Shown here in pieces: positions 8-19,078 of a stretch of DNA of 19,079 nt. The stretch comes from Candidatus Rifleibacteriota bacterium. GTDB lineage: Bacteria > Muiribacteriota > UBA6191 > JACPRK01 > JACQZM01. Numbering within the stretch: position 1 is the first letter of the stretch; every line of letters starts with the position of its first letter. The position numbers and the translations under genes were made by a program. The notes beneath the pieces were generated by a model. The model was given only the letters and a program-made list of their open reading frames with translations, was not told where the DNA came from and did not search any database. The stretch spans positions 1-19,079 of the forward strand of contig JACQZM010000117.1 of the NCBI GenBank assembly GCA_016213885.1, given 5' to 3'.

Positions 8-1399
8 GTGCAGGTGTGCGCCGATCCGTGGACGCCGCTGGTCGAGGAGATCGATCCGCGAACCAGGAGGCCGACCGGGCTGTACCGCCGCACGCTGATC
101 CCGGCCGGGGCCGAGGACGTTCCCGCGACGCCGGTGCGCTGTCGCCTCACCCCGACCGGCCAGCCCGCCGGGATCGAATCGAGCGTCATCTCCACCGCCC
201 TGACAACCGCGCCGATCGTGGTCGAGTCGACGGCCAGGGTGGGGATGTTCGGGGCCCGGACGGTGCGGCTGGCCGTGGTGAAGAGCCCGTCGGCCGATCT
301 GGCGTTCGGCCTCCACGAGATCCGCCTGGGCGGCCCCTACCTGACCCGCGTTCCCGCGGGCACCGTGCTGAGAGTCACGGGCCAGCGCGGCGATCACTAC
401 CGGGTGCGGCTCACCCCGACGCTCGACGCATGGGTCCCGCTGCAGGCCGTGACCTGGGCGTCCCCGACCGCCCGGGTGCCCCACCTGGCGTTCACGTCCA
501 TGGTCGTGGAGGGAGAGGCCACCGCGGACCGGGTGTCGATCCCGTACGCCCAGCCGGTCCCGTTCTCGGTGGAGCCTGCCCAGGGTCCTGACGGCAGAGC
601 GGCGCTCCACATCGACTTCTACGGCGCCCACTGCGCGGCCACGTGGATCACCCACCGGGCCAGCGCTCGGCTCATCCGGGAGGTCAGCGTCCACCAGGTG
701 GCCACGGGTCACGTGAGGGTCAGGGTCGACCTCGAGCACCGGCGTCTCTGGGGCTGGCGGGTCGAGCCGGGTCGCGGCTCCCTGACGGTCGTGGTCAGAG
801 CGCCGCCGCCGGTCGATCCGGCGCCGGCGCTGCCGCTCAGAGGTCTCGCCATAGCTCTCGAGGCGGGCCACGGCGGGACCTCCCAGGGGGCCCGGGGGCT
901 CGCGCAGGTCGATGAGAAGGAGGTCAACCGGCTCGTCACGGAGGGTCTGGCGAAGGAGCTCATCGCCGTGGGCGCCCGGGTCGTCATCATCCGGAACGGC
1001 GATGAGACGGTCTCCCTGGAGGAGCGGTGTCAGCGCACCATGAAGGCGAACGCGAACCTGTTCGTCTCGATCCACGCCAACGCCTCGGACACGGACCGGG
1101 GGTTCCTCAGGGTCGGGGGCGCCAGCACGTACTACAAGCACTCCACGAGTCGCGACCTCGCCGTGGCGGTCCAGGCGGCGCTGCTCAGGCGTACTGGCCT
1201 GCCGGATTTCGGGTGCGTGGGGAACTTCAACTACCTCCCGGTGAGGGCGCTGACCTGGATGCCTGCGGTGCTGGTGGAACAGGCGTTCCTGAGCAATCCC
1301 GTGGAGGAGGCGAAGCTGCTGGACGGGGAGTTCCGGAAGCGGCTGATCGCCGCGGTGCGGGAGGGGATCGAGGAGTTCGTCCGGACCCGGGGGGAGTGA
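8..1399 (+). CDS. N-acetylmuramoyl-L-alanine amidase (Amidase_3/MurNAc-LAA family) with N-terminal non-catalytic region; 5' end probably lies upstream of the window
   Basis: Continuous 463-codon ORF opening with GTG at 8 and no in-frame stop upstream within the window. C-terminal half carries Amidase_3 hallmarks: 'LAIALEAGHGGTSQGARG' (AGHGG zinc-ligand motif), 'NANLFVSIHANA', 'GASTYYKHS' and 'VLVEQAFLSNP' (E-x-x-F-[LI]-[ST]-N). Confidence 0.85.
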   Translation: MQVCADPWTPLVEEIDPRTRRPTGLYRRTLIPAGAEDVPATPVRCRLTPTGQPAGIESSVISTALTTAPIVVESTARVGMFGARTVRLAVVKSPSADLAFGLHEIRLGGPYLTRVPAGTVLRVTGQRGDHYRVRLTPTLDAWVPLQAVTWASPTARVPHLAFTSMVVEGEATADRVSIPYAQPVPFSVEPAQGPDGRAALHIDFYGAHCAATWITHRASARLIREVSVHQVATGHVRVRVDLEHRRLWGWRVEPGRGSLTVVVRAPPPVDPAPALPLRGLAIALEAGHGGTSQGARGLAQVDEKEVNRLVTEGLAKELIAVGARVVIIRNGDETVSLEERCQRTMKANANLFVSIHANASDTDRGFLRVGGASTYYKHSTSRDLAVAVQAALLRRTGLPDFGCVGNFNYLPVRALTWMPAVLVEQAFLSNPVEEAKLLDGEFRKRLIAAVREGIEEFVRTRGE

Positions 1400-1600
1400 C
1401 GCGGGCGCAGTCATCGTGGCCGACGGGGAAGCGAAGGCCCTCGAAGAGTGACAGGCGCTGCGCGCGACGGCTGTCATTCCTCCTGGAGGGCTCCACCCGT
1501 TTCGTGGAGCTCGGCCTGTGATCACCCCTTGGCGGGATCCGGAGTCACGGGGGAGGTGGAGGGGATCCGGTCAGGCGCCGGATCCAGGTCCTCGGCTTCC

Positions 1601-1629
1601 TTGCTACCGGCCTTTCACACCGCTATGAT
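1601..1629 (+). promoter_or_regulatory. sigma70-like promoter (TTGCTA-N17-TATGAT) upstream of the nfeD/flotillin pair
   Basis: TTGCTA at 1601-1606, a 17-nt spacer, TATGAT at 1624-1629. Both hexamers are AT-rich islands in ~70% GC intergenic DNA. About 80 nt upstream of the 1713 start codon. Confidence 0.4.
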
Positions 1630-1712
1630 GCTGCCTGGACCGCCGGACCCGTGGCTTCCCGTCGACCCGGGTCGGCTCGCGTCGGCTCCTCACGACCAGC
1701 GTCTCCGGAACT

Positions 1713-2534
1713 ATGGAATGGCTCGCCTGGTGGAACCTGCTGTTCGAGCTCCCGATCGCGGGGGCCTGCCTCCTCTCCGTGGTGGCCACCATGGGGGCGG
1801 ACGCCTCGGCCGACGCCCCCCACGACGCTGACGCGTCCGTCGAGCACGACACCGACGTGGGGCACGAGGCGCCCCTGGAGGCCGGGCACGTCCTGGGCGT
1901 GAAGGACGCCCTGGGTGACGCCGCCCACGCCGTGGACTCCAAGGAGGCGCTGGCCGGCGGCGGTCACGGAGCCGACGCCAAGGCGCTCGTCTCCTCCGGC
2001 CACGGGTCGGTCGCGACCGGCGCCGGGCCGTGCCCCCCCGCGAGCCACGATGTCCCCTGGCTCACCTGGGTGCTCGCGCTCCCCGGGGCGGATCGGGCGC
2101 CGCTGTCGTTCGTGCTCATCGTCCTGTCCGTGTCGTTCGGGCTCATCGGGCTCGTGGCGAACCGGTTGCTCTCGGGTCTGTTGCCGCCGCTGGCGTTCGT
2201 CTGGATCTCCCTGGCCGTGGCCGGCTCGATGAGCCTCCTGGTGACCCGGACGTTCGCCCGCACCCTCGGCCGGTTCCTGCCCCGGATGGAGACGTACGCA
2301 CTGACCCGGGCGGACTGCGTCGGACAGGTCGGGAAGATCACCTGCCTGCTGTCGCCCCGGGAGGGCTACGCCCAGGTCTACGACCCGCAGAAGAACTTCC
2401 TGGAAGTGCGGGTGGTGGCCCGGGGCCAGACGACGTTCTCGCAAGGGGGGCAGGTGCTGCTCCTCGAGTACGAAGAGATCAACAGCCGGTTCGTGGCCGA
2501 ACCGTTCAACCCGGAGCTCGGCGCTTCGACCTAG
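1713..2534 (+). CDS. NfeD-like membrane protein (YqiJ/YuaF-type partner of SPFH/flotillin proteins)
   Basis: 273-aa ORF with hydrophobic N-terminal and central TM segments (LSFVLIVLSVSFGLIGLVANRLLSGLLPPLAFVWISLAVAGSMSLL). C-terminal beta-rich OB-fold-like region 'GQVGKITCLLSPREGYAQVY…FLEVRVVARGQTTFSQGGQVLLLEYEE' is typical of NfeD C-termini. Stop TAG at 2532-2534 sits 16 nt before the flotillin ATG. This is the classic nfeD–flotillin operon arrangement. Confidence 0.75.
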   Translation: MEWLAWWNLLFELPIAGACLLSVVATMGADASADAPHDADASVEHDTDVGHEAPLEAGHVLGVKDALGDAAHAVDSKEALAGGGHGADAKALVSSGHGSVATGAGPCPPASHDVPWLTWVLALPGADRAPLSFVLIVLSVSFGLIGLVANRLLSGLLPPLAFVWISLAVAGSMSLLVTRTFARTLGRFLPRMETYALTRADCVGQVGKITCLLSPREGYAQVYDPQKNFLEVRVVARGQTTFSQGGQVLLLEYEEINSRFVAEPFNPELGAST

Positions 2535-2550
2535 GAGGGCGATACCAGCC

Positions 2551-4434
2551 ATGTTCAAGATGTTCCTCTGGATCCTTCTCTCCATCGCGATCATGCTCGG
2601 GCCGATCACGGTTCCGGTGCTGCAGCAGCATCTGAACTACCCTGCCCAGGTCATCGTCTCCGGGTTCGGCTTCTTGATGTTCATAGGCGGGCTGTCCGTG
2701 GTCACGATCACCCGGCTCTACATCCGCCCCGCCGCCAACGAGGCGTTCGTCCGCACCGGCATGGGAGGGACCCAGGTGGTGCTCGACGGCGGCGCCTACC
2801 TGATCCCGGTGGTGCACCAGCTCGTCAAGGTGCCGCTCACCACCACGCGGCTCGACGTGGACCGGTCCGGCCCCGACTCGCTCATCACGGCGGACAAGCT
2901 CCGGGCCGACCTGAAGGCCGAGTTCTACATCCGGGTGATGCCGCAGGTCGAGGACATCAAGACCGCGGCCCGGTCGTTCGGCGACCTGGCGGGCCAGCCG
3001 CAACGCATCGCCCAGATCGTGAACGACAAACTGATCAGCGCCCTGAGGTCCGTGGCTGCGAACAAGACGCTGGAAGAGCTCAACACCCGCCGCAACGAGT
3101 TCGCCGCGGAGGTGAAGCAGCAGGTGGAGGCAGACCTCAAGCACAACGGACTCACCCTGGAGACCGTGACGATCTCCAAGCTCGACCAGACCGATCCCAA
3201 GAACCTGAAGGCGGACAACGTGTTCGACGCGCAGGGGCTGAAGCGGATCACGGAGATCACCACGGAGGCGGCGGTGCGCAGGAACGAACTGGAGCAGGCG
3301 GCCCAGCAGGCGATCAAGGAGCGCAACGTCAAGACCCGGCAGCAGGTCCTGCTGCTGGAGCAGCAGCAGGCCGAGGCGGAGGCGAACCAGCAGGCCCAGG
3401 TCGCCAAGGTGAAGGCGGTCAAGGACGCCGAGGCTCGCCAGGCCCAGATCGAGCAGGAGCAGGCGGTGCAGGAGCGTGAGGTGGAGCGGGTGCGAGCCAT
3501 CAAGGCAGCGGAGCTGGACGCCCAGAAGAAGGTGCTGGAGAGCGAGCGCGTCCGGGAGCTGGCCGACGTGGAGAAGCAGAAGGCGATCGAGACGGCTAAC
3601 CAGGAGAAGCAGATCGCCGTGGCCCAGGCCCAGGCCCAGCGCGCCCAGGCGGAAGAGCAGCAGTACGCCAGGATGGCCGAAAGAGAGAAGTCGGTGCAGC
3701 AGGTCGAGACCGTGAAGGTCACCGCGGCGGCGGAGCGCGACGGCGAGCAGAAGCTGATCGCGGCCTCCAAGGCGGCGGAGCAGGAGCTGGTGCGGGAGCA
3801 GCGCAAGGCCGATGCGGCGGCGTACAAGGTGCTCAAGGAGGCGGAGGCGAAGAAGGCCGCTGCCCAGGCCGAGTACGAGGCCAGGCTGAAGGCTGCCGAG
3901 GCGGAGGCCGAGGCTGCCAAGAAGAGGGCCGAAGGGGCCACCGCGGAGGCCATGGTGCAGGTGACCGTGCAGCAGAAGCAGGTGGAGGTCGAGCAGCAGC
4001 GGGTCGAGGTGGAGGGGCACCGGCTCTCGATCCAGGAGAGCTACGGCCGCGCGGCCATCGAGCTTCAGCTCAGGATGAGAGAGCTCGAGGTGGCGGCCCA
4101 GGTGGAGGTCGCTCGGGCCCAGGCGCTGGGCACCATGCTCTCCCGGGGCAACTTCACGATCTACGGCGACCCGGCCACCCTGTCCAACCTGGCCGAGGCG
4201 TTCAACAAGGGGATGGGGTTCCGGCAGATGGCCGAGGGGTTCCTGTCGGGTCAGGCGGGGGCGAGCCCGCTGGGCGGCCTGGTGAGCGCCGCCGCCGATC
4301 TGGCCGCCAAGCTGACCCGGCCCGACGGGGCCAAGGCTCCGGCGGACCAGCCCGCCGCGCCGCCCCCGGCTCCGCCGATGGACCAGGCTGCGCCCGCGGA
4401 CCAGGCCGCGCCGGGGCCGACGAAGAGCGCCTGA
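2551..4434 (+). CDS. Flotillin-family SPFH/Band-7 domain protein (YqiK/FloT-like) with long Glu/Ala/Gln-rich coiled coil and Pro/Ala-rich C-terminal tail
   Basis: ATG at 2551 preceded by AGGAGG (2534-2539). Shows an N-terminal TM helix (MFLWILLSIAIMLGPI), then an SPFH core (YIRPAANEAFVRTGMGG…VVLDGGAYLIPVVHQL…TTRLDV…LITADKLRADLKAEFYIRV). About 300 aa of EAEA/QQ coiled coil follow, then a 'GFLSGQAGASPLGG' tail typical of flotillins. Confidence 0.9.
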   Translation: MFKMFLWILLSIAIMLGPITVPVLQQHLNYPAQVIVSGFGFLMFIGGLSVVTITRLYIRPAANEAFVRTGMGGTQVVLDGGAYLIPVVHQLVKVPLTTTRLDVDRSGPDSLITADKLRADLKAEFYIRVMPQVEDIKTAARSFGDLAGQPQRIAQIVNDKLISALRSVAANKTLEELNTRRNEFAAEVKQQVEADLKHNGLTLETVTISKLDQTDPKNLKADNVFDAQGLKRITEITTEAAVRRNELEQAAQQAIKERNVKTRQQVLLLEQQQAEAEANQQAQVAKVKAVKDAEARQAQIEQEQAVQEREVERVRAIKAAELDAQKKVLESERVRELADVEKQKAIETANQEKQIAVAQAQAQRAQAEEQQYARMAEREKSVQQVETVKVTAAAERDGEQKLIAASKAAEQELVREQRKADAAAYKVLKEAEAKKAAAQAEYEARLKAAEAEAEAAKKRAEGATAEAMVQVTVQQKQVEVEQQRVEVEGHRLSIQESYGRAAIELQLRMRELEVAAQVEVARAQALGTMLSRGNFTIYGDPATLSNLAEAFNKGMGFRQMAEGFLSGQAGASPLGGLVSAAADLAAKLTRPDGAKAPADQPAAPPPAPPMDQAAPADQAAPGPTKSA

Positions 4435-4439
4435 GGCCC

Positions 4440-4483
4440 CGGGTCCGACCTACCGGCTCGACCAGAGCGTGGCGATCGCCTGC
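4440..4483. repeat. 44-bp perfect direct repeat of 5199..5242 (last 11 codons + stop + 10 nt of 3' flank of the kinase gene)
   Basis: cgggtccgacctaccggctcgaccagagcgtggcgatcgcctgc occurs identically at 4440-4483 and 5199-5242. The first copy starts 6 nt after the flotillin stop. Confidence 0.85.
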
Positions 4484-4485
4484 GA

Positions 4486-4727
4486 ACCACCAGCCAGGCG
4501 AGGCAGAAGCCGTCCCATCGGCGAGGAGCCCGGGCCGGTTCCGGCGCCTCGGCGGCCGGGCCGGACACCCTGGCACACTCCGGGGAGCGCTCTCCGGCAC
4601 CGGGCTGACCGACGCGCGATCGGAGCGATCCGATCCGGCCGGTCCGGAGGTGAGTGCCCCCGGGGTACGCGGGATCTTCGGCGGGTTGCACGCGCACCGT
4701 GAGACGCTCGGGAGGGTGCCGGGCAGG
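4486..4727 (-). pseudogene. Displaced, degenerate fragment of the 3' region of the kinase gene (homologous to 6167..6429), joined directly to the 44-bp terminal repeat; lacks the ~920 bp encoding the membrane domain
   Basis: By eye, ~240 bp align with 6167-6429 at roughly 90% identity. The first ~95 nt are identical. Later differences include 9-nt and 11-nt indels that break the kinase frame. The translated fragment (ORF 4251..4697 '-': RVQPAEDPAYP…EAPEPARAPRRWDGFCLAWLVV) mirrors the kinase linker region RVHPAEDPAYP…WDGFCLAWLVV. Confidence 0.7.
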
Positions 4728-4735
4728 GGGGTGGG

Positions 4736-4930
4736 ATCGGAACTGGGATCAGATTTCGAGGGTGCCATCTTGGCGGTGTACCCCACAGCGTCCAGGATCG
4801 GAGTGTTGATGATCGTGATGGACGACCCGGTGTCCAGCAGGCAGGTCACGTCCCGGAAGCCGAAGGGACCGTGAACTCGCGCCTGGACCCAGACCTCCCG
4901 CTCCTTGGGGTCAAACCTGACGGTCCACAC
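4736..4930 (-). pseudogene. Retropepsin-like (clan AA) aspartic protease, only the N-terminal ~65 codons including the DTGSS active-site motif; 3' part replaced by the displaced kinase fragment (six-frame ORF 4202..4930 reads through into it and into antisense flotillin)
   Basis: GTG start at 4928-4930 overlaps the stop of the upstream small gene by 20 nt. Reads 'VWVQARVHGPFGFRDVTCLLDTGSSITIINTPILDAVGY', matching the strand / D-T-G-S/A / hydrophobic pattern of bacterial retropepsin-like domains (Asp_protease_2 type). The flap and C-terminal 'hhG.D.L' elements are missing, because homology to the kinase-fragment repeat begins at ~4727. Confidence 0.5.
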
Positions 4931-5156
4931 GGAGCGCCGCCCTCAGCTTCTCGCCTCGCTTCTTCCCGGTCCACACGATCGCTGCCTCGTTCAGGTGCTT
5001 GGCCATCTCGATGAGCGTGGCGTGATCCGGGCTGTGCGCATAGACGATCCCGGAGAGCGGAACGGGCTCCGTGTTCGGCCAGACGTGGTCCACCAGAGCG
5101 ATCCACTCGTCGGCGTACGTCTCCTTGATTTCGTCCCAACTCAGCTTGTCGGCCAT
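4911..5156 (-). CDS. Small DUF5678-like protein (81 aa) often found with retropepsin-like protease genes
   Basis: ATG at 5154-5156 with GAAGGAG 8 nt upstream on the minus strand. The sequence 'ETYADEWIALVDHVWPNTEPVPLSGIVYAHSPDHATLIEMAKHLNEAAIVWTGK' fits the DUF5678 pattern ('GEWVAI … GKVVAHG.D…L.E.AK … I'). The stop overlaps the protease GTG start. GC is lower than neighbouring DNA. Confidence 0.55.
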   Translation of the reverse strand: MADKLSWDEIKETYADEWIALVDHVWPNTEPVPLSGIVYAHSPDHATLIEMAKHLNEAAIVWTGKKRGEKLRAALRVDRQV

Positions 5157-5198
5157 CTATCTGGCTCCTTCGGCAAGATCCGTCGCTCAAGCATAACT

Positions 5199-5242
5199 CG
5201 GGTCCGACCTACCGGCTCGACCAGAGCGTGGCGATCGCCTGC
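5199..5242. repeat. Second copy of the 44-bp direct repeat (inside the 3' end of the kinase CDS)
   Basis: Identical to 4440-4483. Contains the kinase stop codon (cta at 5209-5211 on plus = TAG on minus). Confidence 0.85.
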
Positions 5243-8200
5243 AAGACAGCCACGCCCAGCGTGCTCAGCACCCCGATCCACCACCGCCGTCGCTTCATCT
5301 CGCTGGCCAGAAGGGCCAGCGAGCCCACGATGGCGATCGGCGTGACCGCGAAAAAGAAGAACACCCGGTCGCCGGAGGAGGAGACATTCTGCAGGGCCAG
5401 CGACACGGCAGACACCGCCAGCGAGCTGACGAGCAGCACCCACGGCTGGACCGAAGGGTGCCCGCAGAACGCCCGGAACGCGAGGAGCGTGCCCAGGTAG
5501 GTCGCGACCCAGAGCGAAATCGCGAGAGCGGCACCCGCCCTGCTCTCCACGACGGCGATGAACGAGACCCAGAGGAGTGCCAGGATGCCCAGACGGTAGC
5601 TCACGCGCGGGGGCAGCTCCGGGGCCGGGTACAGCAGCTGGGAGAGAAACAGGACCACCGCCGGGCCGAAGGAGGCGACCAGCTGCACGAGGGGGTCGAG
5701 CTTGCCCTCGATGATCGCGTGGACCCCGAGGGTCAGTCCCAGCCAGAGGCCAAGCAGCGCGCCGCGGAGCTTCCAGGGCGAGAGCACGACCTGACGGCCG
5801 GGATAGAACATCAGGGCGAAGACCAGCGCCGGGACCGAGAGACAGACCCCCACGAGGAACGCCTGCTGCCCCTGCGGGCGGGGGACCAGCAGCGGGATCG
5901 CGATCATCACGATGACGGCATGGCCACCGAGGACGGCGAGAACGGTCCGTCTGCCGATCGGTTCGCAGGGGAGCTGCAGGTGGAGCGACCCTGCCGTCGC
6001 CGAGGCGCCGGGAGCAAAGCCCGCGGGCCAGCGGCACCAGGGCAGGACCATCAGCGCGATGACGCCGGCGTAGAGTCCCATGAAGAATGACGTCTCGGGG
6101 TACCACCCTTGTCGGGGGCACAACCCGGCGAGTCCGCTCAGCGGGAACCAGAGGACCGCGACCAGGACCACCAGCCAGGCGAGGCAGAAGCCGTCCCATC
6201 GGCGAGGAGCCCGGGCCGGTTCCGGCGCCTCGGCGGCCGGGCCGGACACCCCGGCACGCTCCGGGGGAGCGCTCTCCGGCACCGGGCTGACCGGCGCGCG
6301 ATCGGAGCGATCCGGTCCGGCCGGTCCGGTCGGTCCGGAGGTGAGCGCCTCCGGCCGATCCAGGGGGTACGCGGGATCCTCGGCGGGGTGGACGCGCACC
6401 GTGAGACGCTCGGGAGAGTGCCGGGCAGGCCAGACAGGATCCGATGAGTCCCGGGCGCCTCTCTCGATCGGAGGGGAGATGCGATCCGCGAGGCCGACCC
6501 GGGCGAGCGCCTGACTGAACTCCGAAACGAGAGCTCCGACCGTCCGGGGTCGCTCGTCACGCTGCTTGGCCAGAGCTCGCAGCACCACCGCCGCGACCGG
6601 GGAGGGCACGCCCTCCGGTTCCGGCACGGGCGCGTTCTGGATCGCCCAGGCGAGGTCGCCGCCGGAGAATGGCGGGGAGAGGGTCAGCATCTGGTAGAGC
6701 GTGGCCCCCAGGGCGTAGACGTCCGACCGCACGTCGAGCTTCTGACACGCCATCTGTTCGGGACTCATGTACGCGAGGGTGCCGGTCGGCACCATCCCGG
6801 TCTGGCGCGTCCGGAAGCTCGCCAGCTCCGCGGCGACTCCGAAATCGGCCAGCTTCGCTCTCACGCACCCGTCCGGTCCGGTCTCGAGCAAGACGTTCGA
6901 TGGCTTGAGGTCCCGGTGGATGATCCCGTGGTGGTGGGCGTGGTCGAGCGCAGCGGCCACCCCCTCCAGGATCGGCAGAGCCTCCCGTGGTGTCATCGGA
7001 CCGGCGTCGCTCTCGTTCCGGGAGGCCAGCTCGTCCGCCAGCGTCCGACCTGCGACGAACTCCATCACCAGGAAGGGAGGGTCGCCAGGCTCCAGGTTCA
7101 TCAGCCGGACGATGTTCGGATGGGTCAGCTTGAGCGAGAGCCTGGCCTCCTTGATCAGGTTCGTCCGGGATTCGCTGTCGCACCAGAGCTCGAGGGGGAG
7201 CAGCTTCACGGCCACCTCGCTCCCCTCCATGGCGCCGTCCCTCGCGAGCCACACCTGGCCCATGCCGCCGTGACCCAGAAGACGAACGAGCCGGTACCGG
7301 TCCGCCAGCATCCGCCCTTCGACGGGGTCGAACCGGTCCGGCGGGGGCGGTTTCGGCCGCTTCGGGGAGCTCTTCTTGCCCGGCGCGACGGTCCGGTAGA
7401 TCCGGAGCAACGCCTTGCGGAACTCCGACGCCCCCTGGAATCGTCGCGCGGGGTCCTTCTCCAGCGCCCTCTCGATCACCTCGTCGAGCTCCCCGGGAAG
7501 ACCGGGCCTGACCGAGCTGGCCAGGGGAGGCTCGGTCATCATGTGCTGGTAGAGGTGCTCCGGGATCGTCGGGCCCGGGAACGGGAGCTGACCGGTGACG
7601 ACCTCGAACAGCACGACCCCGACGGCGTACAGGTCGCTCGCCGGTGTGCACCGCTGTCCGCGACACTGTTCGGGCGACATGTACGCCGGGGTCCCCATGA
7701 TCTTCCCCGCGACCGTTCCGGACGGAAGGTGCTGCGCCCTGGCGAGGCCGAAGTCGCCGATCTTGGGCTCACCCTCTCGCGAGAGGAAGATGTTGGCGGG
7801 CTTCAGGTCCCTGTGCACCACCCCCTTGTCGTGGGCCACCTTGAGTCCTCCCAGAACCCTGAGCACGATGCGCAGGGCCTGTCGCAAGGAGAGGCGCGTC
7901 GGGTCTCTCAGGCGCTCTTGCAGCGAAGAGCCCTCCACGTACTCGCACACCACGTAGGGCAGGCCGCCGTCGTGGCCGGCGCCGTGGACCGCCACGATGT
8001 TCGTGTGGTTCAGGGAGGCCAGGACCTTCGCCTCCTTGACGAGCCGCCGGATCTGTTCGGTCGAGAGCTCGTCCCCTCTGACCACCTTCACGGCGACCAG
8101 CCGGTCGAGCTCGATCTGACGCGCCAGGTAGACCTTTCCCATCCCGCCCTCGCCCAGCGTCCTGATGATCCGGTACTGGGTCATGAAGGCCTGGGAGAAC

Positions 8201-8364
8201 CGGGCGAGGATCGGATCCGGAGGAGTCGTGGTGGCGCAGGTCTCCGGACCGGCGCCGACGACCACCGCCCGTCCGCACGAAGGGCAGCTGGCGCGGCCGC
8301 TGGAGTCGACGACGAGCGCCACCCGGTCCGGGCAGTGAGGGCAACAGAGCACGCCGTCGGTCAC
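5209..8364 (-). CDS. Membrane-anchored tandem Ser/Thr protein kinase: N-terminal C4 zinc ribbon, two Hanks-type kinase domains, Pro-rich linker, C-terminal ~9-10 TM domain (PglW-like?)
   Basis: 1051-aa ORF with GAAGGAG RBS upstream of the GTG start. Zinc ribbon: CCPHCP-x17-CPSCG. Kinase domain 1: LGEGGMGKVY, VAVKVV, HRDLKPANIFL, DFGLAR, GTPAYMSPEQ. Kinase domain 2: LGHGGMGQVWLA, VAVKLL, HRDLKPSNVLL, DFGVAAE, GTLAYMSPEQ. C-terminal ~330 aa form successive hydrophobic helices (e.g. LAWLVVLVAVLWFPLSGLAGL, VIALMVLPWC, AVIVMIAIPLLV, LVGVCLSVPALVFALMFY, LGILALLWVSFIAVV, FFFFAVTPIAIVGSLALLA). Confidence 0.9.
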   Translation of the reverse strand: MTDGVLCCPHCPDRVALVVDSSGRASCPSCGRAVVVGAGPETCATTTPPDPILARFSQAFMTQYRIIRTLGEGGMGKVYLARQIELDRLVAVKVVRGDELSTEQIRRLVKEAKVLASLNHTNIVAVHGAGHDGGLPYVVCEYVEGSSLQERLRDPTRLSLRQALRIVLRVLGGLKVAHDKGVVHRDLKPANIFLSREGEPKIGDFGLARAQHLPSGTVAGKIMGTPAYMSPEQCRGQRCTPASDLYAVGVVLFEVVTGQLPFPGPTIPEHLYQHMMTEPPLASSVRPGLPGELDEVIERALEKDPARRFQGASEFRKALLRIYRTVAPGKKSSPKRPKPPPPDRFDPVEGRMLADRYRLVRLLGHGGMGQVWLARDGAMEGSEVAVKLLPLELWCDSESRTNLIKEARLSLKLTHPNIVRLMNLEPGDPPFLVMEFVAGRTLADELASRNESDAGPMTPREALPILEGVAAALDHAHHHGIIHRDLKPSNVLLETGPDGCVRAKLADFGVAAELASFRTRQTGMVPTGTLAYMSPEQMACQKLDVRSDVYALGATLYQMLTLSPPFSGGDLAWAIQNAPVPEPEGVPSPVAAVVLRALAKQRDERPRTVGALVSEFSQALARVGLADRISPPIERGARDSSDPVWPARHSPERLTVRVHPAEDPAYPLDRPEALTSGPTGPAGPDRSDRAPVSPVPESAPPERAGVSGPAAEAPEPARAPRRWDGFCLAWLVVLVAVLWFPLSGLAGLCPRQGWYPETSFFMGLYAGVIALMVLPWCRWPAGFAPGASATAGSLHLQLPCEPIGRRTVLAVLGGHAVIVMIAIPLLVPRPQGQQAFLVGVCLSVPALVFALMFYPGRQVVLSPWKLRGALLGLWLGLTLGVHAIIEGKLDPLVQLVASFGPAVVLFLSQLLYPAPELPPRVSYRLGILALLWVSFIAVVESRAGAALAISLWVATYLGTLLAFRAFCGHPSVQPWVLLVSSLAVSAVSLALQNVSSSGDRVFFFFAVTPIAIVGSLALLASEMKRRRWWIGVLSTLGVAVLQAIATLWSSR

Positions 8365-8610
8365 GAGAGCTCTCCTTCGAGCCGGGCGCCGCTGCTGGCG
8401 GGCTCGCTCTTCCAGGGCCTCGCGATGGGCGCCGAGCGCAGCGTCGTCGGGTCCATCCTAGACCATCGCTCTCGAAGTTCCCAGGCAGTTGTCAGACCGC
8501 ACGCACGGGAGCTGGGAGCTGCCTGCCGGACACCGGCGTCGTCGCGGAGCCCGACGCCACCCGGACGAGTCCGTGAGGCCGTCTCCAGTAGACGCTCGGC
8601 AGCCACGGCA

Positions 8611-10743
8611 CTACACCAGAAACGCCGCCAGCAGGTCCGCCTCGGGACCGGCGAGCTCCCGCACCTCCGAGAAGGTCGCGGCCACCTCGACGACCCCCGT
8701 GGCCAGCAGCCGCTCGACGACCTGCCGGCGCCGGATGTCGATGGGCACGAGCCGGGCGTGCGCACCGGGCTCCTGGAGACGCTCCAGCCGCTTCCAGCAG
8801 GTCGCGACAGCCCGTTCGAGCGTCCGCGGATCGAGCCTGAGCGCCGCGGGTGACGGCGCCGCGTCCAGGGTGATGCTGGCGTCGCCTGCGGCACGGATCC
8901 GCAGGCCACTCCCGGCAAGATGCGCCGCCAGCGCCCGCGTTCCGGCTCCCCCGAGAAACGGGAACACGGCGATCCTCCCCGGCCCCGCCGGGATCACCGG
9001 GACGACCCCGACGGGGATGCCCAGGTGCTCCCGGACCGCCTGGGCCAGCCCGAGCGAGATGGGCATCGGGGCGGTGAAGTAGCGCGGCGCCTGGGCGGGG
9101 CCCGGGCCGGACCGATCGAGATAGGCCCGGCCGTCGGCGGTCGTGGTGAGGTGCCCGGTTCTTCCGGCGAACGCCACCGGTCCGGCCGCCGGGATGCCGG
9201 ACCGCTGGACGTCCCCGAGATGCTCGTGGGTCCCCGCATCGAACACGGCCACGGTGTCGCGGACCTGGCCCATGTTGGTGTGGAGCTTCCGCGGATCGGT
9301 CTCGAACCAGCGCTCCAGGGTCGGCCCGATGCCGTATCGTCCGCCCCGCGCCACGGTGAGCAGCCCCTGCTCGGTCATGGCGACCAGCACGGCCTGAAGG
9401 TGCAGAGCCGGACCGGCCGGGTCGACGACCCCGTCGGGGTCGGCCAGCAGCGCCTCGATCTCCGGACGCCCCACGGTGCCGCTGGAGCGCTGCAGCAGGT
9501 AGCTCGCGATCTGCTGGACCAGCACCGACGCCGCGAAGATCCGGCCGGGGCGCTCGATCTCGCCCTTCCGCGCCAGCGAGAGGATGACCTCGAACATCAC
9601 CTCGTCGGCCCTGCCGCGGGCGACGCCGAGCACCCTCGTGACGTCCTTTCTCCGGCGACAGCCACGGCCGATCTGCTGGAGGAACGAGGTGACGCTGGGG
9701 GGCGCGCCGACCTGGACGACCCAGTCCACGTCGCCGATGTCGATGCCGAGCTCCAGCGTCGAGGTGGCGACGAACACGGCCTGGGCGGCCCGGTGGAACG
9801 CCTCTTCTGCCGCCAGCCGGGTGCTCCTGGAGAGGCTCCCGTGGTGGGCGTAGACGTGGTGTCCCCAGGGAGCTTGCCCTGCGAGCTCCGCCGCCACCTC
9901 CTCGCATCCGGCCCGGCTCCGGGTGAAGACGAGCAGCTTGGCCGCCCCGGAGCGGGGAATCCGCCGGAGCGCCTGCAGCACCGTGCCGCCCCCGGCGAGC
10001 GGTGCGCCGATCGTCTCGATGGTCCGGCTCCCCGCCACCCGGAGGACCCCGGCGCCCGGTGCGAACGCCGCGGCGAGCGAGGCCGGGTCCGCCGCCGTGG
10101 CCGATACCAGGACGGTCTGGAGCGTCGAGCGCGGGTCTCGATCGCCCCGGTCCACGGCCGCCCGGTGGATCCGGCGCACCCTCGACATGAGGATGCCCAG
10201 CTGGTCGCCCCGGGGCGTGCCGTCCACGAGATGGATCTCGTCGAGCACCACCGCACGCACCCCGACGAGCTCCCCGGGCCTTCTCACCAGGAGCGAATCG
10301 AAGCTCTCCGGAGTCGTGATGAGCCACGGCGAGAGCCGCCCCTGTCGGCTCACCGGGTGGTCCGCCGTCTTCCGGCCCAGGACGATGCCGAGTCGCTCCA
10401 GTGGCGGAGCCAGCCGGCGGTAGAGGTCGTTCACCAGCGCCCGGGTGGGGCAGACCCAGAGAAGGGCCGCTCCGGCGTCGGCTCGGGCGAGGTGAAGCTC
10501 GGCCAGAGGCGCCGCAACCGCCTCGGTCTTGCCGCCGGCGGTCGGCGCAGCGACGACGGCGCTCTCCCCGGCCAGGAGCCGGGGGATCGCCGTCCGCTGG
10601 ATCGGCGTCAGTCGCCCGAACCGGCCGAAGAACGCGGGGCCGCAACGCCGGAGGGAGGCGAGGATCGCCCGCTCCAGAGCCCGATCGCTCTCCGGCTTCG
10701 CGAGAAGACCCGGCGGGGTCGAGGGCTCACGATTCGCGGTCAC
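8611..10743 (-). CDS. DEAD/DEAH-box superfamily-2 helicase, Lhr-like (BrxHI-like)
   Basis: 710-aa ORF. Its GTG start overlaps the stop of the upstream gene by 17 nt (gtgaccgcgaatcgtga). Motif I AAPTAGGKTEA, motif II VVLDEIHLV (DEIH), motif III VSATAAD, helicase C-terminal motif VI QQIGRGCRRR. A ~300-aa C-terminal extension follows, as in Lhr-type helicases. Confidence 0.85.
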   Translation of the reverse strand: MTANREPSTPPGLLAKPESDRALERAILASLRRCGPAFFGRFGRLTPIQRTAIPRLLAGESAVVAAPTAGGKTEAVAAPLAELHLARADAGAALLWVCPTRALVNDLYRRLAPPLERLGIVLGRKTADHPVSRQGRLSPWLITTPESFDSLLVRRPGELVGVRAVVLDEIHLVDGTPRGDQLGILMSRVRRIHRAAVDRGDRDPRSTLQTVLVSATAADPASLAAAFAPGAGVLRVAGSRTIETIGAPLAGGGTVLQALRRIPRSGAAKLLVFTRSRAGCEEVAAELAGQAPWGHHVYAHHGSLSRSTRLAAEEAFHRAAQAVFVATSTLELGIDIGDVDWVVQVGAPPSVTSFLQQIGRGCRRRKDVTRVLGVARGRADEVMFEVILSLARKGEIERPGRIFAASVLVQQIASYLLQRSSGTVGRPEIEALLADPDGVVDPAGPALHLQAVLVAMTEQGLLTVARGGRYGIGPTLERWFETDPRKLHTNMGQVRDTVAVFDAGTHEHLGDVQRSGIPAAGPVAFAGRTGHLTTTADGRAYLDRSGPGPAQAPRYFTAPMPISLGLAQAVREHLGIPVGVVPVIPAGPGRIAVFPFLGGAGTRALAAHLAGSGLRIRAAGDASITLDAAPSPAALRLDPRTLERAVATCWKRLERLQEPGAHARLVPIDIRRRQVVERLLATGVVEVAATFSEVRELAGPEADLLAAFLV

Positions 10744-12424
10744 GGCGCGGTCCCTCCACGAACGAGGCGATCTCGTCGGCGACTCGAGCCCAGCTCCAGC
10801 CCGATCGGGCGCGGACCAGATCGAGCCCGTTGACGACGGTCTGGACGACCTCGCGGAGGTTCTTGAACGTGCCGCTCTCGAGCCCGCTCTCGAAAGCCAG
10901 CGCGAGCCGCCTGCGGTCCTGCGGACCGGGTGGTGGAACCGCGGGGAACGCCCACCGGTAGGTCGCGTCGACGCGCTCGATCAACGAGGTCAGCTCGGCC
11001 TCGCCGAGACGGCCCGGCAGGGGCGTGACAAGGCTCTTGTCGGGCAACCACGAGACCAGATCGTCCTGGCCGGGCGCGGGGGTGCAGGCGACGACCAGGC
11101 CCAGGTTCGCCGGCGGCCGCCAGCAGAACGGGATCTTCTTCCTGCCGCCCTGGTAGGAGCCGCCGAGGTATTCGACCGGCAGCGAAGGACCCAGCGCGCT
11201 GGCCACGAGACCTTTGAAGAAGTCGACGGCCCGGCCCTCCATCTCGACGGAGAGGAGTCGCAGGTGCTCCGCCTCGTCGAGGAGGACGACGAGACCGGCG
11301 TGGCCCAGCAGGCGCACCAGGTCGGCCAGGCCGCTGATCAGGTAGGTGAAGTGGCTCGAGAGAGTCGTGTACGAGCCGAGGGAGAGCAGCGCCTGTCGGG
11401 CCGTGCGGACCGCGACCCGAGCCCGGAGGTCGTCGAGGTCGACGTCCTCGCCGGAGATCCACTGGTAGAGGTAGTCCTTGCCAGCGGCATCGCCGGACAA
11501 TCCCTGCCAGTTGAGCAACGTCGGTCCGAGGAACTCGTGCCACGCTCCTCGCCTCCGGCGAGCGAACGAATCGACGACCACCGGGGAGAGCACGGCCCGG
11601 TCGAGCAGCCCCACGAGCCCTCGTCCTCGCGCGTCCTCGCCGGGGACCCTGAGTGACTTCACCAGGGAGCGGTAGACGTTTCGGGGATGGTTCGCCTGGC
11701 ACTCGAACGCGTCGAGGTCGGCCCGCGCCACGACGAAATCCTCGTGGAGCGCCATCCTCCAGATGACGTCCAGCGCGTGGCTCTTCCCGCTGCCGTACGG
11801 CGCCGAGATCACCCTGACCGATCCACCGCGACGCGCCCTGGCCAGGTCGGCGGCGAACAGCCGACGCTCCCTCTCGAGCCCCACCGAGAGCGCCTCCACG
11901 GCGTAGCGCGGGACGATGCCGAACCGCAGCGCCTCCACGACGTTGCGACCCACCCGGCCCCGCCACCGGGCCCGCTCCTCCGGATCCACGGGATCCTGCC
12001 GGGGCTGCTCCTCTAGGCGTGGCCGGGCCGGCTCGTCCCGGGGGCGCTCACGGAGCCCCGACCCGGCGGGCTGACCCGGCGGGAGCTCGGGGGAGCTCTC
12101 GATCGCAGCCGGTGGTGTCGCCGGCGCAGCCCCGGACGCCGCTCCGGACGACGCCGGGGCGGGTGGCCCGTCCGCGACGGCCGTGACCTCCGGGCGCCGG
12201 AGCCAGATCACGAGCCCGATCGGAGGGTCCAACCGCACGAAGAGCTCGTGGCCGCCGAATCGCTCCGCGACCACCGTGCCGTGGCACCGGAAGCGCCCGA
12301 CCAGGACCCGGAACCCGATCATCGACGTCACGAGCGATCGCCGTCCCTGGTCAGTACTCGCCGCCGGCCTCGGCCTCGGTCTCCGATCTCGAGAGCGCCA
12401 GAAGCGACGTCTCGATCGGCGCAT
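10727..12424 (-). CDS. DUF2791/BrxD-like P-loop ATPase, paralogue of the upstream gene; annotated ORF start probably too far upstream (low-complexity N-terminal ~150 aa)
   Basis: Walker A 'VISAPYGSGKSHAL', Walker B 'LVVLLDEAEHL'. N-terminal block 'VGRNVVEALRFGIVPRYAVEALSVGLERE…GGSVRVISAPYGSGK' parallels 'ATRIIHRLGESGQPPTRGVQYFNVGNTRLLD…GGSSFKLVVGQYGGGK' of the adjacent BrxD-like protein. Overlaps the upstream gene by 74 nt as drawn; an internal start (e.g. MIGFRV…) would reduce this. Confidence 0.7.
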   Translation of the reverse strand: MRRSRRRFWRSRDRRPRPRPAASTDQGRRSLVTSMIGFRVLVGRFRCHGTVVAERFGGHELFVRLDPPIGLVIWLRRPEVTAVADGPPAPASSGAASGAAPATPPAAIESSPELPPGQPAGSGLRERPRDEPARPRLEEQPRQDPVDPEERARWRGRVGRNVVEALRFGIVPRYAVEALSVGLERERRLFAADLARARRGGSVRVISAPYGSGKSHALDVIWRMALHEDFVVARADLDAFECQANHPRNVYRSLVKSLRVPGEDARGRGLVGLLDRAVLSPVVVDSFARRRRGAWHEFLGPTLLNWQGLSGDAAGKDYLYQWISGEDVDLDDLRARVAVRTARQALLSLGSYTTLSSHFTYLISGLADLVRLLGHAGLVVLLDEAEHLRLLSVEMEGRAVDFFKGLVASALGPSLPVEYLGGSYQGGRKKIPFCWRPPANLGLVVACTPAPGQDDLVSWLPDKSLVTPLPGRLGEAELTSLIERVDATYRWAFPAVPPPGPQDRRRLALAFESGLESGTFKNLREVVQTVVNGLDLVRARSGWSWARVADEIASFVEGPRRDRES

Positions 12425-13643: not shown

Positions 13644-13661
13644 GAGGAGTCGTCGCGCCTC

Positions 13662-14564: not shown

Positions 14565-14615
14565 CGCTTGCGAAGTTGACAGACCGTAGCACCGGACGGC
14601 CGCACGAGCCGACCG

Positions 14616-16490: not shown

Positions 16491-16493
16491 GCG

Positions 16494-18682: not shown

Positions 18683-19078
18683 TCAGCTCTCCAGCGACCC
18701 TTCCTCCTCGTCCTGGATCAGCAGCACGACCTGGCCGTGACGGACGGAGCGGTGCTTCTTCCGCTGGTTGAGCGCCGCTGCGACTCGCTCCTCCGTCACC
18801 ACGCAGTTCTTCAGATAGGGTCGCGACGGGAGCTTGAACATCAGGTCGAGCATCACCTCTTCCATGATCCTTCTCAGGCCCCGGGCGCCGCTTCCCTCCT
18901 GGATCGCCGCCTCGGCGATGGAGGTCAGCGCCTCCTCGGAGTAGGTCAGGTTGACCCCGTCCATGGCCATCAGCTCCTGGTATTGCTTGACCAGGCTGCT
19001 GGTCGGCTCGACCAGGATCCTCACCAGGTCGTCCCGGGACAGCCGGGTCAGCGGAGCGACCACGGGCAGGCGCCCCAC
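18683..19078 (-). CDS. clpX: ATP-dependent Clp protease ATP-binding subunit ClpX, C-terminal 131 codons (5' part beyond window end)
   Basis: 'LVEPTSSLVKQYQELMAMDGVNLTYSEEALTSIAEAAIQEGSGARGLRRIMEEVMLDLMFKLPS' matches the conserved ClpX C-terminal region (…KNALVKQYQKLF…GVEL.F…AL..IA..A…KTGARGLRSI.E..LLD.M…LPS). The ORF runs to the window edge. Confidence 0.8.
   Translation of the reverse strand: MGRLPVVAPLTRLSRDDLVRILVEPTSSLVKQYQELMAMDGVNLTYSEEALTSIAEAAIQEGSGARGLRRIMEEVMLDLMFKLPSRPYLKNCVVTEERVAAALNQRKKHRSVRHGQVVLLIQDEEEGSLES

What the first reader, a model, noticed from the sequence alone, without database searches (positions are those of the whole stretch)
5209..8364. Unusual kinase architecture: C4 zinc ribbon + two apparently active Ser/Thr kinase domains + ~10-TM C-terminal domain
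Both kinase domains retain the Gly-loop, VAVK lysine, HRDLKP(A/S)N catalytic loop, DFG and APE-like (SPEQ) motifs. Neither looks like a pseudokinase.

They are followed by a Pro-rich linker and about 330 aa of consecutive hydrophobic helices. Tandem active kinases on a polytopic membrane anchor are uncommon. PglW of the Streptomyces Pgl system is reported to carry two kinase-like domains, which makes the adjacency to BrxD/BrxHI notable. The membrane domain could instead be a sensor, e.g. of envelope/phage-injection stress.
Basis: partly seen in the sequence, partly recalled or inferred. Interest (0 to 1): 0.6.

Follow-up and report, generated by a model that had tools for sequence, protein, structure and literature searches.

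The report
Double kinase with multi-pass membrane anchor
This gene from an uncultured Riflebacteria genome encodes a signalling protein with a small zinc-binding head, two apparently working kinase domains and an eleven-helix membrane tail; double kinases like it form a sizeable family that differs mainly in the sensor tail, and nothing ties it to the phage-defence-like genes next door.

Summary
Window 5209-8364 (minus strand) is one 1051-aa ORF (NCBI MBI4859996.1, Candidatus Riflebacteria MAG). It has a Shine-Dalgarno site, a CxxC...CxxC zinc ribbon and two complete PknB-like Ser/Thr kinase domains. A 100-aa Pro-rich linker and 11 predicted membrane helices follow.

- Tandem active kinases are not rare here. 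65 of the 120 best database hits carry two full catalytic cores.
- About 20 close relatives (51-78% identity per kinase domain) share the zinc ribbon and both kinases. Their tails differ: FGE-sulfatase, SEL1, TPR, PEGA or PDZ-protease, usually after a single membrane helix.
- Only the many-pass tail is unusual. It has one distant relative (P0009, 27% identity) and no other detectable homologue.
- The PglW/BREX link fails every membership test.
- Four paralogue loci lack BrxD/BrxHI neighbours.
- The defence-database kinase hits are non-specific; housekeeping PknB scores higher.

The best reading is a receptor-type Hanks kinase from a lineage-expanded family with swappable sensor modules.

One unexpected feature lies just downstream (4440-4727). 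It is a decayed second copy of the linker and gene end that lacks the membrane domain, which points to recent rearrangement exactly at the sensor-module boundary.

The parts
5209..8364 (-). Complete gene for the 1051-aa zinc-ribbon / tandem-kinase / polytopic membrane protein (NCBI MBI4859996.1)
8372..8378 (-). Shine-Dalgarno-like GAAGGAG, 7 nt before the GTG start; the gene follows a 246-nt gap after the upstream helicase gene
   Evidence: read directly from the sequence
8272..8346 (-). N-terminal C4 zinc ribbon (aa 7-31; C8, C11, C27, C30)
   Evidence: the four Cys are conserved in relatives; short beta-strands with pLDDT 69-88
7405..8175 (-). Kinase domain 1 (aa 64-320), full catalytic core
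7303..7404 (-). Basic, Pro-rich inter-kinase linker (aa 321-354), predicted disordered
   Evidence: pLDDT below 50 at aa 330-340
6505..7302 (-). Kinase domain 2 (aa 355-620), full catalytic core; 36% identical to KD1
6199..6504 (-). Juxtamembrane linker (aa 621-722): 21% Pro, 16% Ala, 14% Arg
5212..6198 (-). Polytopic membrane domain (aa 723-1051), 11 predicted helices; orphan apart from one distant relative (C-terminus of P0009)
4486..4727 (-). Decayed second copy of the linker and start of TM1. It is 94-98% identical to 6167-6429, with 1-, 9- and 11-nt indels, and reads out of frame
4440..4483 (-). Second copy of the last 11 codons, the stop codon and 10 nt (100% identical to 5199-5242). It is joined directly to the linker copy, so the whole 924-nt membrane-domain segment is missing from this copy
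4728..5198 (-). Unique spacer between the gene and its partial copy, GC 0.62. It holds an 81-aa ORF (4911-5156) and the first ~67 codons of a retropepsin-like aspartyl protease gene (from 4930 downwards, motif LLDTGSS), which is cut off by the linker copy

Best explanation
The protein is a receptor-type Hanks (PknB-like) Ser/Thr kinase. It belongs to a family expanded in Riflebacteria whose conserved cytoplasmic module is a zinc ribbon plus two catalytically competent kinase domains. Each paralogue couples this module, through a disordered Pro-rich juxtamembrane linker, to a different membrane or periplasmic sensor module. In this paralogue the sensor module is an 11-helix integral membrane domain.

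Proposed mechanism: a membrane- or envelope-borne cue changes the conformation or oligomeric state of the membrane domain. That brings kinase domains together for activation-loop phosphorylation. With two active domains on one chain this can happen in cis, with one domain acting as activator or priming kinase for the other. The active kinases then phosphorylate cytoplasmic targets.

Shown: domain composition, intact catalytic residues in both domains, family membership, variable tails and predicted topology.

Inferred: the signal, the cis activation and the targets. The gene most probably acts independently of the BrxD/BrxHI-like cluster upstream.
For: - Two Pkinase domains, each aligned over its full length to PknB. 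The model has pLDDT 88, and each domain matches PknB at TM 0.89-0.91.
- All catalytic residues of both domains are invariant in 20 close relatives. The residues not used to select the wider set (alphaC Glu, APE Glu, alphaF Asp, subdomain XI Arg) are also invariant in 56 two-kinase proteins. Both domains are therefore under purifying selection for catalysis.
- Close relatives are 51-78% identical to the query within each kinase domain. They carry unrelated C-termini: FGE-sulfatase, SEL1, TPR, PEGA, PDZ+S41, or multi-pass. 44 of 65 two-kinase hits have exactly one membrane helix after the kinases, which is the classic receptor-kinase layout (bSTK atlas 10.1101/2025.01.12.632604).
- The membrane tail has native codon usage and a collinear 27%-identical relative that is also fused to tandem kinases (Smith-Waterman z = 8.3 against shuffles).
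- The positive-inside count of 16 against 6 puts the kinases in the cytoplasm.
- The gene has its own ribosome-binding site and follows a 246-nt gap.
- Paralogues sit in unrelated neighbourhoods.
Against: - There is no direct evidence for any signal or substrate.
- No PP2C phosphatase or FHA partner is present in the window.
- The AlphaFold pTM of 0.56 gives no confident KD1-KD2 packing.
- The PknB back-to-back dimer triad (R10, L33, D76) is not kept. KD1 has Q, L, G and KD2 has R, E, N (my reading of the alignments).
- The membrane domain could only be modelled at pLDDT 45, so nothing can be said about its fold.
- The gene lies on the same strand as the helicase/ATPase cluster and directly after it. 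Co-transcription cannot be excluded.
- The 3' region shows recent rearrangement.
Confidence: 0.65

Rival explanations
1. The kinase is a working component of the adjacent gene cluster (SNF2 helicase, two unknown proteins, two BrxD-like ATPases, BrxHI/SngC-like helicase). It would play a PglW-like part, for example sensing membrane damage or phage injection through the membrane domain and switching the ATPase/helicase machinery by phosphorylation.
For: - Same strand, directly downstream of the helicase, with no terminator-like site found in the 246-nt gap.
- BREX type 2 combines the BrxD-BrxHI pair with a two-kinase-domain protein (PMC12839542).
- Two of four paralogue loci also sit near helicase-type conflict genes: AEP-TOTE/ResIII directly upstream of P0002, and SNF2-DUF3670 1.8 kb from P0009.
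Against: - None of the non-kinase features of PglW is present, and the NCBIfam PglW score is 191 against a cut-off of 990.
- The window has no PglX, PglZ or BrxC.
- The BrxD-like and helicase genes are themselves below NCBIfam cut-offs (BrxD 137 against 350).
- No paralogue has BrxD/BrxHI neighbours.
- Two relatives of the helicase have no kinase nearby.
- The PADLOC kinase hits are non-specific. PknB scores 583 bits on PD-T4-6 models, against 314 for KD1 and 234 for KD2.
- The kinase has its own ribosome-binding site after a long gap.
Confidence: 0.12
2. Only one of the two kinase domains signals. The other keeps its motifs but acts mainly as an allosteric partner or scaffold, a functional pseudokinase, as in JAK JH2-JH1, PglW or plant tandem-kinase proteins.
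For: - KD1 and KD2 are only 36% identical and each position is separately conserved within the clade, which suggests division of labour.
- KD2 is slightly better conserved than KD1: 0.56-0.78 against 0.51-0.78.
- EGFR with a duplicated kinase domain is the only two-domain PDB match, although with a different arrangement (rmsd 20 A).
Against: Every catalytic residue, including the VAIK Lys, the HRD Asp, the catalytic-loop Asn and the DFG Asp, is invariant in both domains across the clade. That is not what is seen in established bacterial pseudokinase families.
Confidence: 0.25
3. The present 3' end of the gene is the product of a very recent rearrangement or of a metagenome mis-assembly. In that case the fusion of kinases to this particular membrane domain may be non-functional or not real.
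For: - A decayed copy of the linker joined directly to the gene's last 44 nt lies 480 nt downstream, separated by a truncated foreign-looking cassette of GC 0.62.
- The protein was seen on one contig only.
- The membrane domain has no database homologue at significance.
Against: - The ORF is uninterrupted, with uniform native codon usage across the junction.
- A second, independent protein (P0009, a JGI metagenome) has the same fusion of kinases to a homologous membrane domain.
- The downstream copy differs by substitutions and indels, so it is not an exact repeat that collapsed or expanded during assembly.
Confidence: 0.1

Closest known systems
PknB / PrkC / StkP-type receptor Hanks Ser/Thr kinases
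   Same: The cytoplasmic kinase domain has the PknB fold (TM 0.9, 38-39% identity). A disordered juxtamembrane linker follows, then a membrane segment, with the sensor part C-terminal to the kinase.
   Different: There are two active kinase domains instead of one, plus an N-terminal zinc ribbon. There are no PASTA repeats. An 11-helix integral membrane domain replaces one helix plus an extracellular domain. The NCBIfam PASTA-kinase score passes its cut-off only because two kinase domains add up.
Uncharacterised Riflebacteria tandem-kinase paralogues (P0002-P0020; e.g. 'SEL1-like repeat protein', 'SUMF1/EgtB/PvdO family' MAG annotations)
   Same: They share the zinc ribbon, KD1, KD2 and Pro-rich linker, at 51-78% identity per kinase domain, with identical catalytic residues.
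   Different: Most tails are one membrane helix followed by FGE-sulfatase, SEL1, TPR, PEGA or PDZ+S41 domains. Only P0009 shares a homologous multi-pass tail (27% identity), and it lacks the zinc ribbon. P0008 and P0020 have about 4 helices with no significant similarity.
PglW of type 2 BREX (Pgl)
   Same: Two kinase-fold domains lie in tandem on one polypeptide, and BrxD-like and BrxHI-like genes are nearby.
   Different: PglW has a NERD nuclease, an inactive pseudokinase, an active kinase, an alphaCTD-like domain, three wHTH and an iSTAND domain. It has 1400-1600 aa, is soluble, and is encoded with PglX, PglY and PglZ. Here both kinases are active, the other domains are absent, the protein is membrane-bound and no BREX core genes are present.
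Eukaryotic tandem or duplicated kinases (EGFR-KDD, JAK JH2-JH1, plant tandem-kinase immune proteins)
   Same: Two kinase folds in cis. The concept of an intramolecular activator/receiver pair comes from these proteins.
   Different: They are unrelated lineages. The only two-domain PDB hit (9p9u, EGFR-KDD) superposes at rmsd 20 A and TM 0.35-0.41, so the arrangement is not shared. Most of these pair a kinase with a pseudokinase (own knowledge).
MviN/MurJ-pseudokinase fusion of mycobacteria
   Same: A polytopic membrane domain and a kinase-fold domain sit on one chain (mentioned; architecture from my own knowledge).
   Different: The order is reversed (membrane domain first), there is a single inactive kinase-like domain, and there is a recognisable MurJ domain. 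No MurJ or other Pfam family matches the tail here.

Membership tests
Hanks-type (eukaryotic-like) Ser/Thr protein kinase | Pfam Pkinase match above the gathering score | tested here: met
   PF00069 scores 323.9 bits against a cut-off of 31.7, in two stretches
Hanks-type (eukaryotic-like) Ser/Thr protein kinase | Catalytic residues: Gly-loop, VAIK Lys, alphaC Glu, HRD Asp, catalytic-loop Asn, DFG Asp, APE Glu | tested here: met
   All are present in KD1 and in KD2, and invariant in relatives
Hanks-type (eukaryotic-like) Ser/Thr protein kinase | Bilobal kinase fold | tested here: met
   AlphaFold pLDDT is 88. Each domain matches PknB at TM 0.89-0.91 and rmsd 1.6-2.4 A
Hanks-type (eukaryotic-like) Ser/Thr protein kinase | Phosphotransfer activity | not testable with these tools
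   Needs an autophosphorylation assay for each domain
PglW (BREX type 2) | N-terminal NERD restriction-endonuclease domain | tested here: not met
   Only about 60 aa with a zinc ribbon precede KD1, and there is no NERD match. Definition from PMC12839542
PglW (BREX type 2) | An inactive pseudokinase followed by an active kinase | tested here: not met
   Both domains keep every catalytic residue
PglW (BREX type 2) | C-terminal alphaCTD-like domain, three wHTH and an iSTAND domain; 1400-1600 aa | tested here: not met
   The C-terminus is 11 hydrophobic helices and the protein has 1051 aa. The PADLOC and NCBIfam PglW profiles match only their kinase region
PglW (BREX type 2) | NCBIfam BREX_PglW equivalog score at or above the cut-off | tested here: not met
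   191 bits against a cut-off of 990
PglW (BREX type 2) | Encoded together with PglX, PglY/BrxC and PglZ | tested here: not met
   None is present among the window's genes. The cluster is bounded by clpX at 18683-19078
PASTA kinase (PknB/Stk1 family) | Extracellular PASTA repeats after a single membrane helix | tested here: not met
   No PASTA match and 11 helices instead of one. NF033483 scores 531.8 against 450 only as the sum of two kinase domains, covering profile positions 6-273 of 563
PD-T4-6 / MAD6 / other defence kinases (PADLOC) | A specific match to the defence-kinase profiles, beyond what a housekeeping kinase gives | tested here: not met
   Control: the M. tuberculosis PknB kinase domain scores 583 bits on PD-T4-6 and 284 on mad6. 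KD1 scores 314 and 267, KD2 scores 234 and 219. NCBIfam MADS6 scores 338 against a cut-off of 460
Riflebacteria zinc-ribbon tandem-kinase clade (unnamed) | CxxC...CxxC, KD1, KD2 and a Pro-rich linker in this order, with position-specific similarity (KD1 to KD1, KD2 to KD2) | tested here: met
   KD1 is 51-78% and KD2 56-78% identical to the query in P0002-P0020, against 36% between KD1 and KD2. The Cys residues are conserved

The most novel reading that the evidence does not exclude
The tandem kinase uses its orphan 11-helix domain to detect membrane perturbation, such as phage genome injection or pore formation. It then phosphorylates components of the adjacent, unclassified SNF2 / BrxD-like x2 / BrxHI-like cluster. 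This would be a membrane-wired, PglW-independent way of controlling a BrxD-BrxHI module. The decayed linker copy downstream would be the scar of sensor-module swapping under phage pressure.
Probability: 0.08. Interest if true: 0.7.

Novelty: new variant of a known kind. Interest (0 to 1): 0.3.

Why it matters
Bacterial Hanks kinases are normally described as one kinase domain plus one membrane helix plus an extracellular sensor. The 2025 atlas of about 300,000 bacterial STKs that I read does not mention tandem catalytic domains.

This locus belongs to a clade in which two fully active domains plus a zinc ribbon form a conserved signalling cassette, plugged onto interchangeable sensor modules. 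That gives a natural system for two questions. What does a second active kinase in cis add: priming, amplification or a second substrate range? How are sensor modules exchanged? The locus carries a physical trace of such an exchange at the linker.

It does not open a new kind of biology, and it does not extend BREX/Pgl.

Tried and rejected
1. Homologues of the membrane domain.
- The word-indexed searches with the domain alone and with the two-sequence alignment returned nothing, not even the query's own protein. They are therefore uninformative.
- The exhaustive HMMER scan of 1.84 billion representatives found only the query itself.
- A pattern and tblastn scan of GTDB genomes found nothing.
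- Homology to the P0009 tail was only found by looking at the kinase relatives.

2. AlphaFold on the membrane domain with 2 sequences gave pLDDT 45, too poor for a fold search, so none was run.

3. The model of residues 1-640 has good domains but pTM 0.56. The PDB search gave only single-domain PknB-type hits, plus EGFR-KDD at rmsd 20 A. No inference about KD1-KD2 packing is possible.

4. Conservation of the neighbourhood.
- The 624-aa unknown protein has no relatives in GTDB genomes.
- The helicase gave two metagenome loci, neither with a kinase.
- Three look-ups of kinase relatives (including the query's own protein) found no record.

5. No Rfam family was found in the window. No convincing promoter or terminator was found around the gene.

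6. A diversity-generating retroelement was considered for the repeat pair and rejected. The mismatches are not adenine-specific, no reverse transcriptase is in the window, and the repeat covers a disordered linker.

7. No internal duplication was found within the membrane domain (z = 0.2).

8. No similar downstream remnant was found at four paralogue loci.

9. Positional orthology of KD1 and KD2 with the two-kinase proteins of other phyla was not found: 0.375 against 0.368. Tandem kinases there are probably independent duplications.

10. The papers opened from literature searches for bacterial tandem kinases did not describe such proteins (searches; papers read).
Full report
**Source and gene map**

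The window is a complete 19,079-bp contig of a Candidatus Riflebacteria metagenome-assembled genome. The protein of interest is identical to NCBI MBI4859996.1, 'MAG: protein kinase', and has been seen on this contig only. GC content is about 70%, so I picked the real genes among the many ORFs by third-position GC.

| Coordinates | Strand | Gene |
|---|---|---|
| 8-1399 | + | N-acetylmuramoyl-alanine amidase |
| 1713-2534 | + | weakly YqiJ-like membrane protein |
| 2551-4434 | + | SPFH/flotillin protein |
| 5209-8364 | - | the kinase |
| 8611-10743 | - | DEAD-box helicase (BrxHI/SngC-like) |
| 10727-12424 | - | BrxD/SngB-like ATPase |
| 12351-13643 | - | BrxD/SngB-like ATPase |
| 13662-14564 | - | protein with no family match |
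| 14616-16490 | - | protein with no family match |
| 16494-18581 | - | SNF2 helicase (DrmD-like) |
| 18683-19078 | - | 3' end of clpX |

**Check of the observation**

The finding's coordinates are exactly one 1051-aa ORF on the minus strand.
- GAAGGAG lies 7 nt before the GTG start, and a 246-nt gap separates it from the helicase gene.
- Third-position GC is 0.77-0.92 in every 100-codon block, including the hydrophobic tail. The whole ORF is therefore coding in this frame, with the genome's own codon usage.
- The N-terminus has two CxxC knuckles (C8/C11 and C27/C30). They are conserved in the relatives that have a complete N-terminus and are modelled as short beta-strands at pLDDT 69-88.

Kinase domains:
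- Pfam finds two kinase domains.
- Both align over their full length with M. tuberculosis PknB, with E-values of 3e-55 and 7e-45.
- Both contain the Gly-loop, VAVK Lys (K93, K387), alphaC Glu (E111, E406), HRDLKPxN (D186/N191, D485/N490), DFG (D204, D507), SPE Glu (E232, E536), alphaF Asp and subdomain XI Arg.
- An AlphaFold model of residues 1-640 built on 56 relatives has pLDDT 88. Each domain superposes on PknB at TM 0.89-0.91.

Linker and membrane tail:
- Residues 621-722 are 21% proline.
- Residues 726-1049 contain 10-11 hydrophobic segments by Kyte-Doolittle analysis and 11 helices in the low-confidence model.
- Alternate loops hold 16 against 6 Lys+Arg. This fits cytoplasmic kinases, 11 passes and an external C-terminus.

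**What it belongs to**

Searching the whole protein gave a clear picture.
- The best ~19 hits are mostly labelled Riflebacteria or come from metagenomes. They match only the first 47-60% of the query (zinc ribbon, KD1, KD2), at 51-78% identity per kinase domain.
- Their tails are unrelated: FGE-sulfatase, SEL1 repeats, TPR, PEGA, or PDZ plus S41 peptidase. Read directly from the sequences, most have one membrane helix after a Pro/Ala-rich linker.
- KD1 resembles KD1 and KD2 resembles KD2 far more than KD1 resembles KD2 (36%). The clade therefore descends from one duplication, and both positions have been kept.
- Every catalytic residue of both domains is invariant in the 20 sequences.

In a wider set of 56 two-kinase proteins from several phyla, the residues I had not used to select the set are also invariant. 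These are the alphaC Glu, APE Glu, alphaF Asp and subdomain XI Arg. The HRD, DFG and Lys motifs were used for selection, so their invariance there is circular.

Of the 120 best hits, 65 have two complete catalytic cores. Of those 65, 44 have one membrane segment after the kinases, 13 have none, 4 have two, and only 4 have three or more.

Against the two-kinase proteins of other phyla there is no positional signal. Query KD1 is 0.375 identical to their KD1 and 0.368 to their KD2. Tandem duplication of Hanks kinases has therefore probably happened more than once.

The tandem active kinase is thus a recurring, conserved architecture, even though the bacterial kinase atlas I read does not mention it. 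That atlas describes 'kinase plus one C-terminal membrane helix' as the commonest form.

**The membrane domain**

The membrane domain is the unusual part.
- An exhaustive HMMER scan of 1.84 billion representative proteins found only the query itself.
- A scan of 185,579 species genomes found nothing.
- The two word-indexed searches were negative but did not even return the query's own protein, so I discount them.

Among the kinase relatives, P0009 (992 aa, from a JGI metagenome) also ends in a multi-pass domain.
- The two tails align collinearly over their whole length at 27% identity.
- The BLASTP E-value for the pair is 0.001.
- The Smith-Waterman score of 120 compares with 49 +/- 8.5 for 300 shuffles, z = 8.3.
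- The shorter multi-pass tails of P0008 and P0020 are not significantly similar.
- P0009 has no zinc ribbon.

The positions shared by the two tails are mostly Pro, Gly, Trp and Arg at helix ends, together with a loop motif between helices 2 and 3 (LxLQxPxxPxxxR). No His, Asp or Glu constellation suggests an enzyme. With only two sequences this is weak evidence. There is no internal repeat, and the fold could not be modelled (pLDDT 45).

**The defence question**

PglW was defined in 2026 as a protein of 1400-1600 aa. It comprises a NERD nuclease, an inactive pseudokinase, an active kinase, an alphaCTD-like domain, three wHTH and an inactive STAND domain. It is encoded with PglX, PglY/BrxC, PglZ, BrxD and BrxHI (PMC12839542).

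Here the only shared element is a pair of kinase folds, and both are active.
- NCBIfam BREX_PglW scores 191 bits against a cut-off of 990.
- No BREX core gene is in the window, and the cluster ends at clpX.
- The BrxD-like genes score 137 and 73 bits against a cut-off of 350.
- The helicase is about as close to Shango SngC as to BrxHI, but no TerB protein is present.
- The strong PADLOC hits of the kinase to PD-T4-6 and mad6 are non-specific. The kinase domain of housekeeping PknB scores 583 bits on PD-T4-6 models, more than KD1 (314) or KD2 (234).

Four paralogue loci show different neighbours and no BrxD/BrxHI:

| Paralogue | Neighbours |
|---|---|
| P0009 | response regulators, S8 peptidase |
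| P0008 | type II secretion genes |
| P0005 | cell-division and murein genes |
| P0002 | an AEP-TOTE/ResIII helicase directly upstream |

Two relatives of the helicase carry no kinase. P0002 sits behind a conflict-system helicase, and P0009 is 1.8 kb from an SNF2-DUF3670 gene. I record these as weak hints only.

**An unexpected feature**

A decayed partial copy of the gene's 3' part lies just downstream of the stop codon. In the direction of the gene the order is: linker (A, 6429-6167), membrane domain (T, 6166-5243), gene end (B, 5242-5199), unique spacer (U, 5198-4728), linker copy (A', 4727-4486), 2 nt, end copy (B', 4483-4440).
- A' is 94-98% identical to A, with 1-, 9- and 11-nt indels.
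- B' is 100% identical to B over 44 nt, including 10 nt after the stop codon.
- The A'/B' junction is out of frame.
- U has lower GC (0.62). It carries an 81-aa ORF with coding-like codon bias and the first ~67 codons of a retropepsin-like protease (weak Pfam Asp_protease_2 match, LLDTGSS motif), cut off by A'.

The second copy lacks exactly the membrane module and breaks exactly at the linker/TM1 boundary. This is the same boundary at which the paralogues' tails differ.

The simplest readings are two. One is a segmental duplication followed by deletion. The other is displacement of an older 3' end by recombination in the linker. A mis-assembly is less likely, because the copies differ by substitutions and indels, but only read mapping can settle this. 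None of four paralogue loci has such a remnant.

**Mechanism**

My preferred reading (confidence 0.65) is a receptor-type Hanks kinase. The membrane domain acts as sensor or anchor and the Pro-rich juxtamembrane segment as a flexible, possibly phosphorylated connector. Two active kinase domains can phosphorylate each other's activation loops in cis before acting on cytoplasmic targets.

Composition, catalytic integrity, topology and family context are shown. The signal, the cis activation and the substrates are inferred.

Two observations limit this reading.
- The modelled KD1-KD2 packing is not confident (pTM 0.56).
- The PknB back-to-back dimer residues are not kept in either domain (my reading).

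How the two domains cooperate therefore remains open.

**Verdict**

This is a real, correctly described gene: an unusual tail on a little-described but common tandem-kinase cassette. It is not PglW and not demonstrably part of a defence system. I rate it a new variant of a known kind, with interest 0.3.

Noticed in passing
window 4440-4727 (compare 5199-5242 and 6167-6429): A decayed, out-of-frame second copy of the kinase gene's linker, joined directly to its last 44 nt. The whole membrane-domain segment is missing from this copy, and the break lies at the same boundary where the paralogues' tails diverge.
   Followed up: yes
window 4728-5198: A spacer with lower GC (0.62) holds an 81-aa ORF (4911-5156, minus strand, GC3 0.85, no family match). 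It also holds the first ~67 codons of a retropepsin-like aspartyl protease (LLDTGSS; Pfam Asp_protease_2 E = 0.002), truncated by the linker copy. It looks like a broken two-gene cassette.
   Followed up: partly
window 8611-18581, minus strand: A six-gene cluster: SNF2 helicase (DrmD-like), a 624-aa protein and a 300-aa protein with no family match, two BrxD/SngB-like ATPases and a BrxHI/SngC-like DEAD helicase. The 624-aa protein contains CPSC...CGRC. The 565-aa ATPase matches mainly over the first ~126 positions of the BrxC/BrxD profile and has a 157-aa N-terminal extension. The cluster has no PglX, PglZ, BrxC or TerB, all NCBIfam scores are below cut-off, and the 624-aa protein has no relatives in GTDB genomes. 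It is an unclassified candidate defence system.
   Followed up: partly
window 10727-10743 and 12351-12424: The helicase and ATPase genes overlap by 17 nt and the two ATPase genes by 74 nt, as listed from the first possible start codons. The true start of the 565-aa ATPase gene may be further downstream.
   Followed up: no
window 8-4434, plus strand: A cell-wall amidase (Amidase_3), a weakly YqiJ-like membrane protein and a 627-aa SPFH/flotillin protein with a long Ala/Glu/Gln-rich region that looks coiled-coil. They converge on the kinase gene. No functional link was tested.
   Followed up: no
L004 769-3276 and L001 14760-18740: The closest full-length paralogue (P0002) lies directly after an AEP-TOTE primase/ResIII helicase conflict-system gene. 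P0009 lies 1.8 kb from an SNF2-DUF3670 helicase that is followed by a SWIM/AbiEi-like protein. Tandem kinases of this clade may tend to sit in variable or defence regions. This has not been tested statistically.
   Followed up: partly
(tool behaviour): The word-indexed protein search with the hydrophobic domain did not return even the query's own database entry. Negative results from that tool for membrane domains should therefore not be trusted.
   Followed up: yes
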